From an uncultured Acidobacteriota bacterium (GTDB lineage Bacteria > Acidobacteriota > JAQAZP01), in assembly GCA_963836075.1 (NCBI GenBank), contig CAWIIB010000009.1, positions 2,336,001-2,400,000 of the forward strand: DNA of 64,000 nt, read 5' to 3'. Below are positions 26,220 to 31,298 of this stretch, piece by piece (position 1 is the first letter of the stretch; the number at the start of each line of letters is the position of its first letter). Position numbers and translations under genes: made by a program. Below the pieces are notes generated by a model. It made no database searches and was not told the origin of the DNA. It saw nothing but the letters and a program-made list of their open reading frames with translations.

Positions 26220-27419
26220 TCACGAGGAATTCGATGTTTCAGCGGGAAATTCCGGCGGGTGGCCCGCCGCCTCCAGCAGCAGGTTGATGGTCTGCCGGGC
26301 CGCCCGTTCCCAGGAGAAATTCCGGCAGCGTTCAGTGCCCCGCCGGGCCATCTGCTCCGACTCCCGGTGGTGGGTCAGGGCCCGGGCCATCACTCCGGCC
26401 ATCTGCTCCACATCTTCCGGGTCGAAATAGAAAACGGCATCCCCGCCCACTTCGGGTAGCGAGGCGGCACTGGAACTGGCCACCGGAACGCCAAAGGCCA
26501 TTGCCTCCAGCAGCGGCAGGCCGAACCCCTCGTGCAGGGACGGGTAGGCAAAGAGCCGGGCCGTGCGGTAGAGGATGGCCAGAGTTTCATCGTCAACCCA
26601 GCCGGTGACCAGCAGGTCCTGCTCACCCAGTTCCAGGCGCCGGGCTTCGGCTTCCACCCGGGCGTGGGCCCGGCCCTTGATTCCGGCAAGTACCAGCTGC
26701 AGCCGCTCCAGCCCGTCCTGGCCGGCCAGTCTGGTTTTCACCTGCCGGAAGGCCTGGAGCAGCCGTTCCACGTTTTTGTGCGGAGCCAGGGTCGAGACGC
26801 AGAGGATGTGGGCCGGGCAGACACCCAGGGCATCCAGCCGTTGCCGCATCTCCTGATCGGACGGTGCCGCGGCGGCCGCCTGCTCCAGCAACCGGCGGGC
26901 GGGAGCCTCGTGGATCACCCGTACCTTTTCAGGTGGCAACCCGTAGGCCTGGCAAAGCCGGTGGGCGGTGAACCGCGAGACAGCGATCACCCGCTGGGCC
27001 CGGCGAGCGGAGAAGGGGATCAGTGTCTCCAGAAAGAGGCGGTAGGAGCGGGGGAAATTGTCCGGGTGGGTGCGCCAGATCAGGTCGTGAACCGTCACCA
27101 CCGTGGGCAGCCCGCCGCAGATCGGGGTGGTGAACCCGGGCGAGAACAAGACGTCGGCACCGTGTCGCAGCAACTGCCAGGGCAGCACCAGCTGTTCCCA
27201 GAGGATGCGCCGTGGCCGGGACTCCGCCGTCACCGGGCACAGAATCCGCTCCAGCCCCGGGGCGTCAGCGAAGGTGTGGTGGTTCTCGCGGTTGGTAAAC
27301 AGGATCAGGCGGTGCCGGATGGAAACGTCGGCCATGGCCGCCAGCAGGGAGCGGGTGTAGATCTCGGTGCCGCCCACCCGGCCGGGCAGCAGGAACAGCG
27401 TGTTGACGGCAATGTTCAT
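26220..27419 (-). CDS. Glycosyltransferase family 4
   Basis: [34 protein letters not shown]. Confidence 0.92.
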
Positions 27420-28609
27420 CCGCCTTCGGCCGCCTCCTCAGCCTCGGTTCCCGGGGCGTCCGGTTCGTCACCGGCAGGTTCCTGTCCGCCCGGTGGCGCT
27501 TCGTCCTCGGCCTGGTCGAGCTTGTCATACTGGCGGCGCACGGCGTTGTAGTTCACGGTGACCACCGCCTGGGACGGACTGTTGGTGGAAATGCTGATGG
27601 TGCCTTCGGTCTCGCTGTTCGCCTCCAGGGCATCGGCCCGGAGGGTGGCGGTCAGTTCGAATTTCTGGCCCGCAATCAGCTCCACCAGGTCCAGGTCCAG
27701 CAGACCATTGTTGTCCCGGCAGCCGAACACGCTGAGCGGCCTGTCCGGGCTGTGTCCGGTGAGGTAGATCCGTTTCCAGCTGTCCCGCGGGTCCCGTTTC
27801 CCTGTTCCCACCACCATCAGCCGCAGGTGATCGGGCGTCACTTCCACGTCACCAGTGATCAGTCCGGTGATGTTCAGCGTGGCCGGGGGAGGGCCCCCGG
27901 ATGCGGCAGTGGCGGTAATGGTTTCCTTCAGCGGACCCGTGGACAGACCGGGCAGGGCCGAGATCTCGATCTCCAGGCGCTGGTGACCGTCCATGGTTCC
28001 GCCGCTATCCACCAGCCGGGCGGTGATGTGAGGGGATGTGGATTCGAGGCCGGCCAGTTCGGTATCCGCTGGATCACGGACCAGAATCACGGCGCGTCCG
28101 GAAACCGCTTCCACGGCCTGGTAGTGAATCGTGCCCAGAGCCAGCGCCCCTGTTTCGAAACCGAAGGGCACCTCCACCCGGGCGGTGAACATCAATCGGG
28201 TCAACCGGTTCTGCGGGTCGTTGGAGGTCAGTTCAATGACCCGGCTGGTCTCGCCCACCACGTCCTGACCGATAAAAGTCACTTCCACACCACCCTCCTC
28301 TCCGGGAGGGATCACCGGGTGGAGGATGGAGGTGCTGATGCAGGAGCAGTGCCCGTCGGCCTTGACCAGGCGCAGGTCGGCATTACCACTGTTCCGGATG
28401 GTGTAGACTGCGGAAACCGCTTCACCCCGGACCACGGTGCCGGCATGGTGTTCCGGGTGGGGAATCTCGATCAGCGGAGCGGCAGATTCCGTGGAAGGTT
28501 CGGCAACGGCCTGAAGCGGCTCGTCCTCTTCAGCCGGGGCGGCGATGCCGCCCAGCAGGAGCAGGGCGACCAGTGCGGCGGTGGCCGTGGTCAGCGGTGT
28601 GCGGGTCAA
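27416..28609 (-). CDS. Secreted DUF1573/Ig-like domain protein (Cys form, HCSC)
   Basis: Signal peptide; YTIRNSGNADL...HCSCIS...IPPGEEGGVEVTF...TSNDP; paralog of the upstream gene. Confidence 0.8.
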   Translation of the reverse strand: MTRTPLTTATAALVALLLLGGIAAPAEEDEPLQAVAEPSTESAAPLIEIPHPEHHAGTVVRGEAVSAVYTIRNSGNADLRLVKADGHCSCISTSILHPVIPPGEEGGVEVTFIGQDVVGETSRVIELTSNDPQNRLTRLMFTARVEVPFGFETGALALGTIHYQAVEAVSGRAVILVRDPADTELAGLESTSPHITARLVDSGGTMDGHQRLEIEISALPGLSTGPLKETITATAASGGPPPATLNITGLITGDVEVTPDHLRLMVVGTGKRDPRDSWKRIYLTGHSPDRPLSVFGCRDNNGLLDLDLVELIAGQKFELTATLRADALEANSETEGTISISTNSPSQAVVTVNYNAVRRQYDKLDQAEDEAPPGGQEPAGDEPDAPGTEAEEAAEGG

Positions 28610-28692: not shown

Positions 28693-30090
28693 CTATGGTT
28701 TCGGCGTTTTCTCCTTCTCCTCCTCGTCCGAATCGCTGTCGGTATCTGAATCAGCCGGCGGCTCGTCCTTTTTCTGGATCTCCGGCATCTTTTTCGTCTT
28801 GGCCGGCTGTTCCGCGCCTCCCAGTTCACCGCCCGGAGCGAACGGGTCATTCTCACCCGCGGCAAACAGCCCTTCAGCGGTATCGCTCTTCAGGGCAGGC
28901 TGTCCGTCGCGCAGGCTCCCTCCTATGGGGGGTGGCATCTTCCTTCCGGATCTGTTTTTCTTGTCGCCCTTTTCCTTGTACGACTTGCGCACCGCACTGT
29001 AGCGTATGGCCACCTCTTTCTGACTGGGGAAGTTGGTGGTCAGGACCACGTTGCCGCTGATATTGCCCTTCCCGGGAATGCTATCCGGTTTCAGTGTCGC
29101 GGTCAGTTCGTACTTTTTCCCCGGCGACAGCGGTTTCAGCTCGAGATCCAGGTGGTCCTCGGTGTCCTTGATATCGACGATCTCCAGATTGGCGCCCTCA
29201 ACGTGGTTGCTGATGAAGATCTTTTTGGTCAGGGTGGACGGCCGGGAGGAGGCCGTGTCGGTGACCACGAAGGTCATCCACTCCGGTGAGACCTCCACAT
29301 CCCCGATCACCGAGCCGGTGAGGCGGAGCATCGCTGTGGGTTTATCCGGGAGATTGGTTTTCAGGGTGACGGTCTCGTTGATCCGGCCCAGCGGCAGACC
29401 CGGCAGTGTGGTCACTTCCAGCTTCATCCGGTCGTAGTGGCCATTGTTGTCGGTGTAATCGAGCATCCTGGCGCTGATGAACTCGGATGAGGGATTCACT
29501 TCCAGCACTTTGGTGGCCGCCAGATCCTTGACCAGGATGAACGAACTCTTGGTTGTGCCCGCGTCGCGGCTCACCTTGCCCAGGTAGAGGCTCGGCTGCT
29601 CGAAGTCGAAGACCACTTCGATAAAGACCTTGACCCGGATGGTCGAGGTGGGGTTCTTCGGGTCGTTGGACGTGACCGTGATCGACTTGGTCAACGCGTT
29701 CTTTTTCGATCCGGAATTGAAAGAGACCTTGATCGTTCCTTCCCCGCCCGGGGGAATCGCCGTCTTGGTAACGACGGCAGCGGTGCACCCTCAGGAACCT
29801 TTGGCCTTGATCAACTGGAGCGGTGCATCTCCCTTGTTGATCACCTTGAAATTGTGGCTCACCTTGCTTCCGCTGGCGATGGTGCCAAAATCGTGCAGCG
29901 GCTCCGGAAAAAAGATCTCCGGAGCAGGTTGACCCGCTTCCACGCTCTTGCTGGCCTGGGAGAGTTTCCCCCTGGCGGTTTTGGCCGCCGGGTCCGCCGG
30001 CTTCTCCTGGGCTGCCAGTGGCGGGGTGAATACCAGGACCGCAGCGATAATCACCATCACCGCTGCAACGGAAAGAGAGGATCTGTTCAT
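28693..30090 (-). CDS. Secreted DUF1573/Ig-like protein with in-frame TGA at codon 100 (probable selenocysteine, SUGCT); 465 aa
   Basis: ORFs 29791..30090 and 28693..29694 are in one frame with only one stop between them; readthrough gives HDFGTI...FKVINKGDAPL...KGS*GCTAAV...IPPGGEGTIKVSF...TSNDP. Confidence 0.8.
29758..29779 (-). promoter_or_regulatory. Candidate bacterial SECIS hairpin
   Basis: TGCCGTC-GTTACCAA-GACGGCG begins 11 nt after the TGA; the loop starts with G 18 nt after the TGA. Confidence 0.6.
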
Positions 30091-30507
30091 GGCTTCTGCT
30101 ACCTTTCACTGACCGGGTCACCCCCGGAACATCCTGTTGCTCCTCGTCACCGAATGGGGAACGGACGTGTCCACAATAGCGGTCGGAATCTCCAAGGAAC
30201 CGCTCCCGGTGACTGTGGAACCTGATACGCATGGAGTCGGCGAAGCGTCGAGAAGAAATCAATGGTTTCCGCCTGCCGGCTGCATCGTTGCCCCTGAAAC
30301 CGCAAAACCCTGCCCTGAGGCAGGATTGGGCTTGGAACAGCCATATTTTCAGCAGTATAAATATAGGGGATCGTTTGAAGTCCGTCAAGAGCGACACTGT
30401 CCGGCCGGGAGGCCGATGACCACAGAACAGGACAGCCCGCCATGTGGAGCGGAACAAGCGTGACTTTGTAAGCGTTTTAAATTGAATTCGTTACGACTAT
30501 CGTTATG

Positions 30508-30524: not shown

Positions 30525-30659
30525 ATGTAAAGGGGTGTTCCCTCGCCAGAGTGGAACGCCGGCGAACCCGCCGGACCCCATGGAGCCTTTGACCAGCGGC
30601 GGGGTTCTGAAGGCCGCCGCCAGGATGCACGGATAGCCATTCCAGATGGAGGTAGAAAG

Positions 30660-31298
30660 ATGAAACGGAACACGAAGAGTAACGGAAGCCCCCAGGCAGA
30701 ATTCCTGGGCAGAGTTTTCTCCATGGCGTTGCCGCTGGTGGCCATCGGTCTACTGGTGGCGGTGTCGGTGGCCGCGGCCCAGGCCAAGGCCGACCCCGTG
30801 GTGAAGGACTACCAATTCCACACCAGCAGTAAGATGAATGGCCTGGAGCTGGTTGTGGGTACCCAGCTGATCCAGACCAAGAGCGATGCCGACATGCCCG
30901 ACTTCACACCGCTGCTCTTCTCGCTGATCAATCTCGATCACCGCGGGGTCACCGTGGAGCGGGACAGGATCAAGCTCACCGACCAGTACGGTACCGAACT
31001 GCCGCTGGCCACCCTCTCCGAGGTGCGCAAGGACTACAAGCGTTTTCGCCAGGACCGGCAGTTTTTCACGGTCACCAACTTCGGTGGACAGTTGGAGCGC
31101 ACCACCAGGATGGTGGCCACCAACTTCTTCCCCCTGCCGGGTGAGATCGGGATTTACCGGATCCAGGTGCCCCAGTGGGGCAAAATGTTTGATTTGCTCT
31201 ACTACAAGGGTACGCTCACCTCCGGTGAAACCTACAAGCTCACCGTCGATGTGAAGGAAGACGTCCCTGACCTCACCATCGAGTTCCAGGCTCCCTGA
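30660..31298 (+). CDS. Secreted hypothetical protein
   Basis: GGAGG RBS, signal peptide ending AAAQA, strong GC3 codon bias. Confidence 0.75.
   Translation: MKRNTKSNGSPQAEFLGRVFSMALPLVAIGLLVAVSVAAAQAKADPVVKDYQFHTSSKMNGLELVVGTQLIQTKSDADMPDFTPLLFSLINLDHRGVTVERDRIKLTDQYGTELPLATLSEVRKDYKRFRQDRQFFTVTNFGGQLERTTRMVATNFFPLPGEIGIYRIQVPQWGKMFDLLYYKGTLTSGETYKLTVDVKEDVPDLTIEFQAP

What the first reader, a model, noticed from the sequence alone, without database searches (positions are those of the whole stretch)
28693..30090. Hidden selenoprotein: secreted DUF1573/Ig-like protein with S-U-G-C-T and a SECIS-like hairpin
Seen: two ORFs called separately are one frame interrupted by a single TGA (29791-29793), reading ...LIKAKGS-TGA-GCTAAVVTKTAIPPGGEG. 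The hairpin TGCCGTC-GTTACCAA-GACGGCG starts 11 nt after the TGA, and its G-initiated loop lies 18 nt after it. Known: DUF1573 domains carry a conserved (S)CGC(T) motif, and bacterial SECIS elements lie just 3' of the UGA with a G early in the apical loop. Inference: the TGA encodes Sec, giving a 465-aa exported protein with a UxC redox or metal site on an Ig-like fold. The other broken genes here are frameshifts, whereas this stop is in-frame and sits exactly on the Cys. I cannot say whether this family is already catalogued as a selenoprotein.
Basis: partly seen in the sequence, partly recalled or inferred. Interest (0 to 1): 0.85.

Follow-up and report, generated by a model that had tools for sequence, protein, structure and literature searches.

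The report
Selenocysteine gene of known DUF1573 family
The apparent stop codon inside this gene almost certainly encodes selenocysteine in a secreted three-domain protein, but this protein family has been listed as a selenoprotein family since 2007, so it is a correct catch and not a new kind of thing.

Summary
Observation confirmed. On the minus strand (30090->28693) one frame is interrupted only by TGA at 29791-29793. Read through, it gives a 465-aa protein with S-U-G-C-T, followed by the described hairpin.

Interpretation supported:
- The genome has tRNA-Sec, selA, selB and two selD genes.
- In 42 of 42 TGA-bearing DUF1573 genes fetched from 32 Acidobacteriota genomes, the TGA sits on the first Cys of the CGC motif.
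- Sec forms carry a stronger hairpin there than Cys forms.
- The TGA persists in two sister species, with purifying selection on both sides.
- It also persists in contigs of two sequencing runs.

It is not new. DUF1573 (PF07610, U-G-C; "OS_HP2") was reported as a selenoprotein family in 2007/2008 and appears in 2022 and 2026 reviews. NCBIfam has a model for it, which this clade misses narrowly, at 95 against 100 bits. This scan had already noted the same thing in at least 86 other genomes.

Function is untested. My best guess is a selenol/thiol redox site on an Ig-like fold.

The parts
28693..30090 (-). Whole selenoprotein gene: ATG at 30090, Sec-TGA at 29791-29793, stop TAG at 28693-28695; 465 aa
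   Evidence: The sister-species orthologues match residues 1-464 (80% identity) and 1-460 (73%), each with one TGA.
29791..29793 (-). In-frame TGA read as selenocysteine (residue U100 of S-U-G-C-T)
   Evidence: It aligns with the first Cys of the CGC motif in Cys homologues and with TGA in 41 other genes. It is unchanged in contigs X1 record 2 and X2 record 10.
29758..29779 (-). bSECIS-like hairpin: 7-bp stem UGCCGUC/GACGGCG, 8-nt loop GUUACCAA. It starts 11 nt after the UGA; the loop starts 18 nt after it.
   Evidence: -11.4 kcal/mol. It meets all four constraints of the published bSECIS model (passages of PMC13188914). It is identical in both sister species.
29740..29756 (-). Second hairpin UUCCCC/CGGGC/GGGGAA over the I-P-P-G-G-E-G codons. 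It is probably a by-product of the coding sequence and not specific to Sec.
   Evidence: The same window folds equally well in Sec and Cys homologues (median -9.4 vs -9.9 kcal/mol, p = 0.29).
30010..30090 (-). N-terminal signal peptide or membrane anchor (about residues 1-27: MNRSS, a hydrophobic run, then ...PLAA|QE)
   Evidence: Read from the sequence by eye. No signal-peptide predictor was run. The region has low pLDDT with a short helix at 11-14. This is an inference.
29644..29910 (-). DUF1573 / HYDIN-VesB-type Ig-like domain (residues 61-149), which spans the TGA
   Evidence: PF07610 E 2.9e-29, 101.4 bits against a cut-off of 26.1; PF22544 E 2.2e-19. NF041425 scores 95 bits against a cut-off of 100.
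28984..29610 (-). Two further beta-sandwich domains (residues 161-262 and 265-369)
   Evidence: AlphaFold2 model, with pLDDT mostly above 90 in this range. Foldseek gives only generic tandem Ig-like matches.
28696..28983 (-). Disordered K/E/D/P-rich C-terminal tail (residues 370-465)
   Evidence: pLDDT is 43-70. It is the fastest-evolving part among the three orthologues (dN 0.25-0.53).
27416..28609 (-). Adjacent downstream paralogue with Cys (…DGHCSCIS…), 397 aa, same architecture. The tandem arrangement is conserved in the genus.
   Evidence: PF07610 E 5.5e-15. It is 35% identical to the Sec gene over residues 46-387, and the same pair occurs in G001 and G002.

Best explanation
This is one intact gene for a selenoprotein of the DUF1573 (OS_HP2) family.

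Shown by computation: the UGA at 29791-29793 replaces the first Cys of the family's conserved C-G-C motif. A stem-loop that fits the bacterial SECIS model lies 11 nt downstream inside the coding sequence. The genome encodes tRNA-Sec, SelA, SelB and SelD.

Inferred mechanism of decoding: SelB bound to Sec-tRNA-Sec binds the hairpin on the translating mRNA and delivers Sec at the UGA. The product is a 465-aa protein.

Inferred nature of the product: it has an N-terminal export signal, three Ig-like beta-sandwich domains and a disordered charged tail. U100-G101-C102 sits in the turn between two strands of the first domain.

Inferred function, about 40% likely: the U-G-C turn is a selenol/thiol redox centre that forms a selenenylsulfide. 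It would work outside the cytoplasm in thiol-disulfide exchange, like the C-x-C of CsgC and of CGC peptides, possibly with TlpA-like thioredoxins. Gene callers and the GenBank record of the sister species split or truncate the gene at the TGA.
For: Sec machinery in the same genome:
- tRNA-Sec scores 74.7 bits (cut-off 47), and ARAGORN calls it SeC with anticodon tca.
- selB scores 365.7 bits, selA 562.8 bits, and two selD copies score 348.5 and 345.8 bits, each with one in-frame TGA.

Family: PF07610 scores 101.4 bits across the TGA. The best NCBIfam hit is 'OS_HP2 family (seleno)protein'.

Cys/Sec alternation:
- In the own genome, 3 of 4 DUF1573 genes have TGA at this codon.
- In a sample of 201 Acidobacteriota genomes, 41 of the 150 listed DUF1573 matches carry exactly one TGA, and none shows any stop other than TGA.
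- 42 of 42 TGA-bearing genes fetched have the TGA exactly at the first Cys of x-G-C: 41 by alignment and L077 by reading the frame.
- 22 Cys homologues have TGC or TGT there.

Hairpin:
- It meets all four bSECIS constraints.
- The best hairpin in the SECIS position has median -9.3 kcal/mol in 41 Sec genes (33 at or below -6). In 21 Cys genes the median is -3.2 (3 at or below -6).
- In one register subgroup, Sec genes pair in 69.3% of cells, with covariation reached by 0 of 500 shuffles. Cys genes pair in 46.9%, reached by 261 of 500 shuffles.

Not a recent lesion:
- The TGA is kept in two sister species at dS 0.54-0.95.
- dN/dS is about 0.22-0.29 upstream and 0.15-0.18 downstream of the TGA.
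- Contigs of runs X1 and X2 (two studies; X2 has 21 differences elsewhere) keep the TGA and the hairpin.

Function hints:
- 4 of 62 relatives fuse the same three-domain unit to thioredoxin/redoxin/AhpC-TSA domains with CGYC/CGFC motifs.
- C88 and C90 are invariant in 41 aligned relatives.
- CsgC is an Ig-fold periplasmic protein with a redox-active CxC (passages of PMC3173608).
Against: - No experiment shows selenium in this protein or in any DUF1573 protein. The papers I read list the family as predicted only.
- The 66-nt region does not fold better than shuffled sequence (z = -1.18).
- Cys homologues keep part of the stem through coding constraints (46.9% paired). Some Sec genes score poorly under my strict hairpin rule: 8 of 41 are above -6 kcal/mol.
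- The Sec-versus-Cys statistics treat related genes as independent, so the p-values overstate.
- X1 may be the sample the genome was assembled from, so only X2 is independent read support.
- The gene scores 95 bits, under the 100-bit cut-off of NF041425.
- For the redox function:
  - No solved structure is related by sequence (0 hits).
  - Fold matches are generic Ig arrays only.
  - 0 of 120 listed domain-level relatives have a thioredoxin fusion.
  - The neighbours are a GT4 glycosyltransferase, an aminotransferase and a GNAT, which say nothing about redox.
  - The two other Sec paralogues share no common context.
Confidence: 0.88

Rival explanations
1. The gene is a real selenoprotein, but the U-G-C turn is a metal-binding site (soft metals such as Cu(I), Hg or Cd) and not a redox centre. 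The protein would be an envelope metal chaperone or trap.
For: Selenolate/thiolate pairs bind soft metals well (general chemistry, recalled). The selenoprotein tables I read list metal-handling families such as MerP, MerT and cation ATPases. Earlier notes of this scan report a related Cys-Sec DUF1573-like family in copper operons of other genomes (I did not check this).
Against: None of the 20 neighbouring proteins I scanned around the three Sec paralogues of this genome matched a copper, mercury or other metal-handling family. The fusions seen are to thioredoxin-fold domains, not to metal domains.
Confidence: 0.3
2. The TGA is a true stop. Either it is a nonsense mutation or assembly error that makes a pseudogene, or the locus holds two separate genes.
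For: The ORF list and the protein collection treat the pieces separately (P0002). The downstream piece has a possible TTG start at 29694. The hairpin alone is not beyond chance.
Against: The Pfam domain (residues 61-149) spans the TGA at residue 100, so a stop would cut the Ig domain in half. The TGA is kept at this codon in 42 genes of 32 genomes, and no other kind of stop occurs in the 150 listed matches. Both sides are under purifying selection while synonymous sites have diverged. Contigs of two runs agree.
Confidence: 0.05
3. The UGA is read through, but by something other than Sec: near-cognate Trp or Cys insertion, or a reassigned code.
For: Cys can be inserted at Sec codons when selenium is scarce (recalled, not checked here).
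Against: The complete Sec machinery is present, and selD itself carries an in-frame TGA. A Sec-specific hairpin accompanies the TGA and is weak in Cys forms. In the genomes searched, a TGA in the DUF1573 domain match fell on the first Cys of the motif in all 42 genes checked, and the one longer match with three TGA (G002:C99) was not followed up; general reassignment would not give that pattern.
Confidence: 0.04

Closest known systems
OS_HP2 / 'DUF1573 domain-containing protein' selenoprotein family. Sources: Zhang & Gladyshev 2007, PMC1976440, Table 2; 2008, PMC2398784, table entry 'OS_HP2 pfam07610 UxC'; reviews PMC9312934 and PMC13188914, entry 'PF07610 UGC'; NCBIfam NF041425. I saw passages only.
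   Same: It has the same Pfam domain (101.4 bits). Sec sits at the same place, on the first Cys of C-G-C, giving U-G-C. It has Cys-containing homologues and a SECIS hairpin directly downstream.
   Different: The family was first found in deltaproteobacterial worm symbionts and ocean metagenomes. This gene comes from an Acidobacteriota genome, a phylum name that occurs in neither review's main text (0 occurrences). It is a long three-domain form with a charged tail, paired with a Cys paralogue. It and its relatives score just under the NCBIfam cut-off: 95, 77.9 and 79.3 bits for the three Sec genes here, and 97 and 83.5 for the nearest Cys orthologues, against 100. The GenBank orthologue is annotated only as the post-TGA fragment (P0007).
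[quoted passage not shown] 2011, PMC3173608, passages)
   Same: Both are extracytoplasmic Ig-like beta-sandwiches with an invariant C-x-C (CsgC) in a loop-to-strand junction. CsgC's potential is -139 mV and the CGC tripeptide's is -167 mV, as cited there. Here U-G-C lies between strands 91-98 and 103-107 of the model.
   Different: There is no detectable sequence relation (0 PDB hits), and neither protein is among the fold matches listed. This is a resemblance in mode of action only. From memory (not checked here), later work attributes CsgC's main role to amyloid inhibition, independent of the CxC.
Predicted exported thiol:disulfide selenoproteins (DsbA-like, DsbG-like and thiol:disulfide interchange proteins in the tables of PMC2398784 and PMC1976440)
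   Same: Sec replaces the attacking Cys of a redox pair in proteins that act outside the cytoplasm.
   Different: Those proteins have thioredoxin folds with a U-x-x-C motif. This one has an Ig-like fold with U-x-C.

Membership tests
Bacterial selenoprotein gene (UGA decoded through SelB and a bSECIS) | The in-frame UGA aligns with a conserved Cys in homologues, and TGA-containing homologues exist in other organisms | tested here: met
   42 of 42 fetched TGA-bearing genes (32 genomes) have the TGA on the first Cys of x-G-C. 22 Cys homologues have TGC/TGT there.
Bacterial selenoprotein gene (UGA decoded through SelB and a bSECIS) | bSECIS model: 3-9 nt apical loop, 4-16 bp upper stem, G in the first two loop positions, 16-37 nt from UGA to loop, MFE <= -7.5 kcal/mol (PMC13188914, Fig. 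2 legend) | tested here: met
   The loop is 8 nt (GUUACCAA) with G first, followed by U. The stem is 7 bp, the spacing 18 nt and the energy -11.4 kcal/mol. bSECISearch itself was not available.
Bacterial selenoprotein gene (UGA decoded through SelB and a bSECIS) | tRNA-Sec, SelA, SelB and SelD are in the same genome | tested here: met
   All four are over the curated cut-offs.
Bacterial selenoprotein gene (UGA decoded through SelB and a bSECIS) | Selenium is actually incorporated at the UGA | not testable with these tools
   This needs 75Se labelling or mass spectrometry.
DUF1573 / OS_HP2 selenoprotein family | The PF07610 domain scores over the gathering threshold | tested here: met
   101.4 bits against 26.1, residues 61-149.
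DUF1573 / OS_HP2 selenoprotein family | U-x-C (U-G-C) motif at the conserved C-G-C | tested here: met
   S-U-G-C-T. C88 and C90 are invariant, and G89 and T91 are at least 90% conserved, in 41 aligned relatives.
DUF1573 / OS_HP2 selenoprotein family | NCBIfam NF041425 curated cut-off (100 bits) | tested here: not met
   The score is 95 bits. It is the best hit, but it is under the cut-off. Paralogues and nearest Cys orthologues are also under it, whereas a Bacteroidota relative, P0094, passes at 138 bits. The gene belongs to the published Pfam-defined family but lies outside NCBI's thresholded subfamily.
Redox-active Ig-fold proteins (CsgC, nDsbD) | Homology to CsgC or nDsbD in sequence or fold | tested here: not met
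   There are 0 PDB sequence hits. The listed Foldseek matches are generic tandem Ig arrays, with no CsgC or DsbD among them. The gene is not filed as a member; this is offered only as a 'works like' comparison.
Redox-active Ig-fold proteins (CsgC, nDsbD) | Reversible disulfide or selenenylsulfide with measurable potential | not testable with these tools
   This needs purified protein.

The most novel reading that the evidence does not exclude
DUF1573 proteins are a so far uncharacterised class of extracytoplasmic selenol/thiol oxidoreductases built on an Ig-like fold. Their U/C-G-C turn would act like a PDI-mimicking CXC. They would work with TlpA-like thioredoxins, to which some relatives are fused, and often as tandem paralogue pairs (Sec+Cys here). 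They would also be a major secreted selenoprotein family of Acidobacteriota: about a quarter of the domain copies in the sample use Sec, and curated models and annotations largely miss them.
Probability: 0.3. Interest if true: 0.5.

Novelty: new member of a known kind. Interest (0 to 1): 0.2.

Why it matters
For annotation: the gene and its orthologues are split or truncated in public data. The closest database relatives, P0003-P0011 and P0013-P0015, are 287-345-aa post-TGA fragments, one of them from GenBank. NCBI's curated model misses this clade by a few bits, so Acidobacteriota selenoproteomes are probably undercounted.

For biology: no function is known for DUF1573. The use of Sec at one fixed residue in many lineages marks that residue as the reactive centre, and it points experiments at a selenol/thiol chemistry in the cell envelope. 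None of this changes what is known about Sec decoding, and the family-level discovery was made in 2007.

Tried and rejected
- **Complex prediction of the tandem pair.** I asked for a prediction of the Sec protein with its Cys neighbour. I dropped the step, so whether the pair binds is untested.
- **RNA evidence.** One metatranscriptome contig (X19) covers 29536-29686 only, not the TGA. The tool warns that DNA may be present in such libraries, so this is no evidence of expression across the TGA. Run X5 stops at 29770 and does not reach the TGA.
- **Whole-window folding energy after the codon (52 nt).** It separates Sec from Cys only weakly (median -21.7 vs -17.2, p = 0.02), because a second hairpin over the P-P-G codons is common to both. 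I therefore do not count the second hairpin as part of the SECIS.
- **Ungapped alignment of all 36 distinct Sec downstream segments (A2).** It puts the stems in different registers, so I counted pairs on a 17-sequence subgroup only. Even there two registers are mixed, which lowers the paired fraction.
- **PDB by sequence:** 0 hits.
- **Foldseek against PDB:** only generic Ig arrays such as ciliary central-apparatus proteins, cadherins and titin.
- **Gene context of the three Sec paralogues:** no shared or telling operon. One AhpC-TSA/Redoxin gene lies about 2 kb from the C1:411545 paralogue, on the other strand, which I rate as too weak to count.
- **Domain-only protein search:** it added no named or characterised relative. 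Names are only 'DUF1573 domain-containing protein' or 'hypothetical protein', and no thioredoxin fusion occurs among the 120 rows listed of 226 hits.
- **Iron-stimulon paper (PMC10434189):** one passage lists a B. thetaiotaomicron DUF1573 gene among regulated genes. It gives no functional information.
- **Supplementary files of the papers** were not available. They may hold the original OS_HP2 alignments and SECIS drawings.
Full report
**1. The observation**

The gene is on the minus strand. Its ATG is at 30090, a single in-frame TGA is at 29793->29791, and the final TAG is at 28695->28693. The ORF list gives two pieces in the same frame. One is a 99-aa piece ending at the TGA. The other is a 333-aa piece from the first TTG after it. 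Stop-to-stop, the second piece runs 28693-29790.

Reading TGA as U gives 465 residues with ...LIKAKGS-U-GCTAAVVTKTAIPPGGEG. The hairpin UGCCGUC-GUUACCAA-GACGGCG occupies 29779->29758. Eleven nucleotides separate it from the UGA, and the loop begins 18 nt after the UGA. It is part of the minimum-free-energy structure and is worth -11.4 kcal/mol alone.

One caution applies. The 66-nt stretch as a whole does not fold better than dinucleotide shuffles (z = -1.18; 26 of 200 shuffles fold at least as well). The hairpin by itself would therefore not convince in DNA of 65% G+C.

**2. Can this organism make selenoproteins?**

Yes. The assembly holding the window is G000: 6.23 Mb, 10 contigs, 94.7% complete, 4.6% contamination. 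It contains:
- a tRNA-Sec (74.7 bits against a gathering score of 47; ARAGORN calls it tRNA-SeC, anticodon tca);
- selB (365.7 bits against 242.25);
- selA (562.8 bits against 267.9);
- two selD genes (348.5 and 345.8 bits against 125), each with one in-frame TGA of its own.

Of the two related loci found in the named genome collection, one is titled an Acidobacteriota MAG and the other an uncultured bacterium.

**3. What the protein is**

Pfam places DUF1573 (PF07610) on residues 61-149 with E 2.9e-29, that is across the TGA at residue 100. The overlapping HYDIN/VesB-type Ig-like model also matches.

An AlphaFold2 model built on 58 aligned sequences has mean pLDDT 81.8. It shows three confident beta-sandwich domains (about 58-158, 161-262 and 265-369). 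The first ~50 residues have low confidence, and the C-terminal tail from 370 is disordered and charged. U100-G101-C102 falls between strands 91-98 and 103-107.

Foldseek against the PDB returns only generic tandem Ig-like arrays. No solved structure is related by sequence.

The N-terminus (MNRSS, a hydrophobic run, then PLAA|QE) looks like an export signal. That is my reading of the letters; no predictor was run.

**4. Cys/Sec alternation**

- *Own genome.* It has four DUF1573 genes. Three carry TGA at the first Cys of the C-G-C motif: this one, C1:411671 and C1:848518. The fourth is the immediate downstream neighbour at 27416-28609, which has H-C-S-C.
- *41 relatives' genomes.* The full protein found 45 matches. 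19 have in-frame TGA (18 with one, one with three) and 26 have no stop. No other kind of stop appears.
- *201 Acidobacteriota genomes, drawn evenly.* 113 have a DUF1573 match. Of the 150 matches listed (93 more were not listed), 41 contain exactly one TGA and 109 contain none. No row shows a stop other than TGA.
- *Position of the TGA.* I fetched all 41, plus one more. In 41 the tblastn alignment puts the TGA on the first Cys of x-G-C. The forty-second (L077) did not align with my query, but its frame reads ...SAAPS*GCTVAEH.... That makes 42 of 42 genes, in 32 genomes.
- *Cys homologues.* The 22 Cys homologues have TGC (18) or TGT (4) there.
- *Full-length Cys orthologues.* They exist at 50% and 39% identity: P0012 (KAKASCGCTVASF) and P0017 (RAKASCGCTAAVL).
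- *Motif conservation.* In 41 aligned relatives C88 and C90 are invariant, and G89 and T91 are at least 90% conserved.

**5. The SECIS**

The published bacterial model requires four things (PMC13188914, Fig. 2 legend, read as a passage):
- a 3-9 nt apical loop;
- a 4-16 bp upper stem;
- a G in the first two loop positions, mostly followed by G or U;
- 16-37 nt between the UGA and the loop, with MFE at or below -7.5 kcal/mol.

This hairpin meets all of them: an 8-nt loop starting GU, 7 bp, 18 nt and -11.4 kcal/mol.

*Comparison with homologues.* I looked for the best perfect-stem hairpin with a G in the loop at the SECIS position.
- In 41 Sec genes the median is -9.3 kcal/mol, and 33 are at or below -6.
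- In 21 Cys genes the median is -3.2, and 3 are at or below -6. One Cys gene, from an unpublished genome, was dropped.
- With G required in the first two loop positions, the medians are -7.5 and -2.0.
- The one-sided Mann-Whitney p-values (1e-7 and 3e-5) overstate the case, because the genes are related.

*Stem sequences.* They differ between subfamilies while pairing is kept. Examples are UGCCGUC/GACGGCG here, CCCUGG/CCAGGG, GGCCGUG/CACGGCC and GUCGCCUCG/CGAGGUGAU.

*Pair counts.*
- On a 17-sequence subgroup in roughly one register, 69.3% of cells pair. Five of nine pairs change on both sides, and 0 of 500 shuffles reach the covariation score.
- The same columns in nine Cys homologues pair in 46.9%, which 261 of 500 shuffles reach.
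- Part of the stem potential thus comes from the coding sequence, but the Sec genes add to it.

*Second hairpin.* The hairpin over the I-P-P-G-G-E-G codons (29740-29756) folds equally well in Sec and Cys genes (-9.4 against -9.9, p = 0.29). I regard it as a by-product of C-rich Pro codons followed by G-rich Gly codons.

**6. Not an error or a fresh lesion**

- The two other species of the genus have the orthologue at 80% and 73% protein identity over residues 1-464 and 1-460. Each has the TGA and the identical hairpin.
- Among the three, synonymous divergence is 0.54-0.95. dN/dS is about 0.22-0.29 upstream of the TGA and 0.15-0.18 downstream as far as residue 370. Both halves are therefore kept as coding sequence.
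- Logan contigs of run X1 (record 2, 29583-29829, two differences, both elsewhere) cover the TGA without change. So do contigs of run X2 (record 10, 29723-30100, 21 differences, none between 29760 and 29800).
- X1 may be the source sample, so X2, from another study, is the independent one. These are contigs and not raw reads.

**7. What is already known**

- *NCBIfam.* The best hit is NF041425, 'OS_HP2 family (seleno)protein', at 95 bits against a cut-off of 100.
- *First report.* OS_HP2 is one of the new selenoprotein families that Zhang and Gladyshev reported from the Olavius algarvensis symbionts in 2007 (PMC1976440, Table 2, passage).
- *Ocean survey.* Their 2008 survey lists 'OS_HP2 pfam07610 UxC', with 2 Sec and 354 Cys sequences (PMC2398784, passage).
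- *This scan.* Its own notes hold 89 earlier findings on DUF1573 with selenocysteine, in at least 86 other genomes, with the same verdict. None is at this place. I reached the OS_HP2 identification, before reading those notes.

So the family-level claim is not new.

Three things are specific to this case:
- The word 'Acidobacteri…' occurs in neither review's main text (0 occurrences), yet about a quarter of listed DUF1573 copies in my sample of that phylum use Sec.
- This clade scores just under NCBI's threshold. The three Sec genes of this genome score 95, 77.9 and 79.3 bits, and the nearest Cys orthologues 97 and 83.5.
- Public protein sets hold the close orthologues only as 287-345-aa post-TGA fragments without a Pfam domain (P0003-P0011 and P0013-P0015). 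One of them is the GenBank entry for the sister species' contig (P0007; its contig length of 38915 equals that of L055).

**8. How it probably works**

Decoding follows the standard bacterial route: SelB bound to Sec-tRNA-Sec is recruited by the hairpin. This follows from established knowledge of the pathway and from the parts found. It is not shown for this gene.

The function of DUF1573 is unknown, and the names in the databases are only 'DUF1573 domain-containing protein' or 'hypothetical protein'. My best guess, at about 40%, is a selenol/thiol redox centre. Three points support it:
- Sec replaces the first Cys of an invariant C-G-C, as in many thiol oxidoreductase selenoproteins.
- Four of 62 relatives fuse the same three-domain unit to thioredoxin/redoxin/AhpC-TSA domains with CGYC/CGFC motifs (P0037, P0044, P0059, P0061).
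- A precedent exists for a redox-active C-x-C on an Ig fold in the periplasm. [quoted passage not shown] The same paper cites -167 mV for the CGC tripeptide (PMC3173608, passages).

Four points count against it:
- No thioredoxin fusion occurs among the 120 listed domain-level relatives.
- The gene neighbours are uninformative. A GT4 glycosyltransferase, a class III aminotransferase and a GNAT lie downstream on the same strand.
- The other two Sec paralogues share no context.
- There is no homology to CsgC or DsbD.

A metal-binding role, at about 30%, is the main rival.

**9. The tandem pair**

The Sec gene is followed directly by a Cys paralogue of the same architecture, and this arrangement is kept in both sister species. 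From the coordinates I count such pairs, less than 2 kb apart, in 13 genomes:
- Sec+Cys in G000, G001, G002, G005, G113 and G137;
- Sec+Sec in G191;
- Cys+Cys in G018, G035, G050, G089, G101 and G125.

Whether the two proteins act together is open. The complex prediction could not be run.

**10. Use of unpublished genomes**

G025 and G151 were among the genomes searched, and they count in the tallies '22 of 41' and '113 of 201'. No TGA-bearing gene comes from them. One Cys homologue of G025 (L032) was in the control sets, and it was left out. No conclusion depends on it.

**11. Verdict**

This is a real but previously catalogued kind of selenoprotein, so it is a new member (an Acidobacteriota three-domain branch) of a known family. 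Interest is low for discovery and moderate for annotation.

Noticed in passing
G000:C4:17381-18301 (+) and G000:C9:892330-893256 (-), outside the window: There are two selD genes, each over the curated cut-off and each with one in-frame TGA, so they are probably Sec-containing SelD. One sits on a small 50-kb contig. With 4.6% contamination, it could be a second copy or foreign DNA.
   Followed up: no
G000:C1:411545-412306 (+) and G000:C1:848506-849471 (+), outside the window (L087:7545-8306, L088:7506-8471): These are two further DUF1573 paralogues with TGA at the same motif position (QPS-U-GCTAAVV and KAG-U-GCTVTGD), each followed by a hairpin. Three of the genome's four DUF1573 genes use Sec.
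   Followed up: partly
window 27416-28609 (-) with 28693-30090 (-); also in G001, G002, G005, G018, G035, G050, G089, G101, G113, G125, G137, G191: Tandem pairs of DUF1573 three-domain genes less than 2 kb apart recur in 13 of the genomes listed (Sec+Cys, Sec+Sec or Cys+Cys). This suggests the two products work together.
   Followed up: partly
Proteins P0037, P0044, P0059, P0061: These are natural fusions of the DUF1573 three-domain unit to one or two TlpA-like thioredoxin/redoxin domains (CGYC/CGFC). They are the only functional hint found for the family.
   Followed up: partly
P0007 / L055 (sister-species contig of 38915 bases): The GenBank protein for the orthologue is only the 327-aa piece after the TGA. 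All close database relatives (P0003-P0011, P0013-P0015) are similar fragments without a Pfam domain.
   Followed up: partly
G002:C99:9158-9880 (-): The match to the full protein shows three in-frame TGA, but only one lies inside the DUF1573 domain. The other two were not examined; they could be a frame problem, further Sec codons or decay.
   Followed up: no
window 30531-31298 (+): This is a divergently oriented 255-codon open frame with coding-like GC3 (0.77) and no Pfam family. Its product (from the ATG at 30660) begins with a hydrophobic signal-like segment.
   Followed up: no
window 29740-29756 (-) and the same place in homologues: The P-P-G-x-x-G codons after the motif form a C-run/G-run hairpin in Sec and Cys genes alike. 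It can be mistaken for a second SECIS stem.
   Followed up: yes
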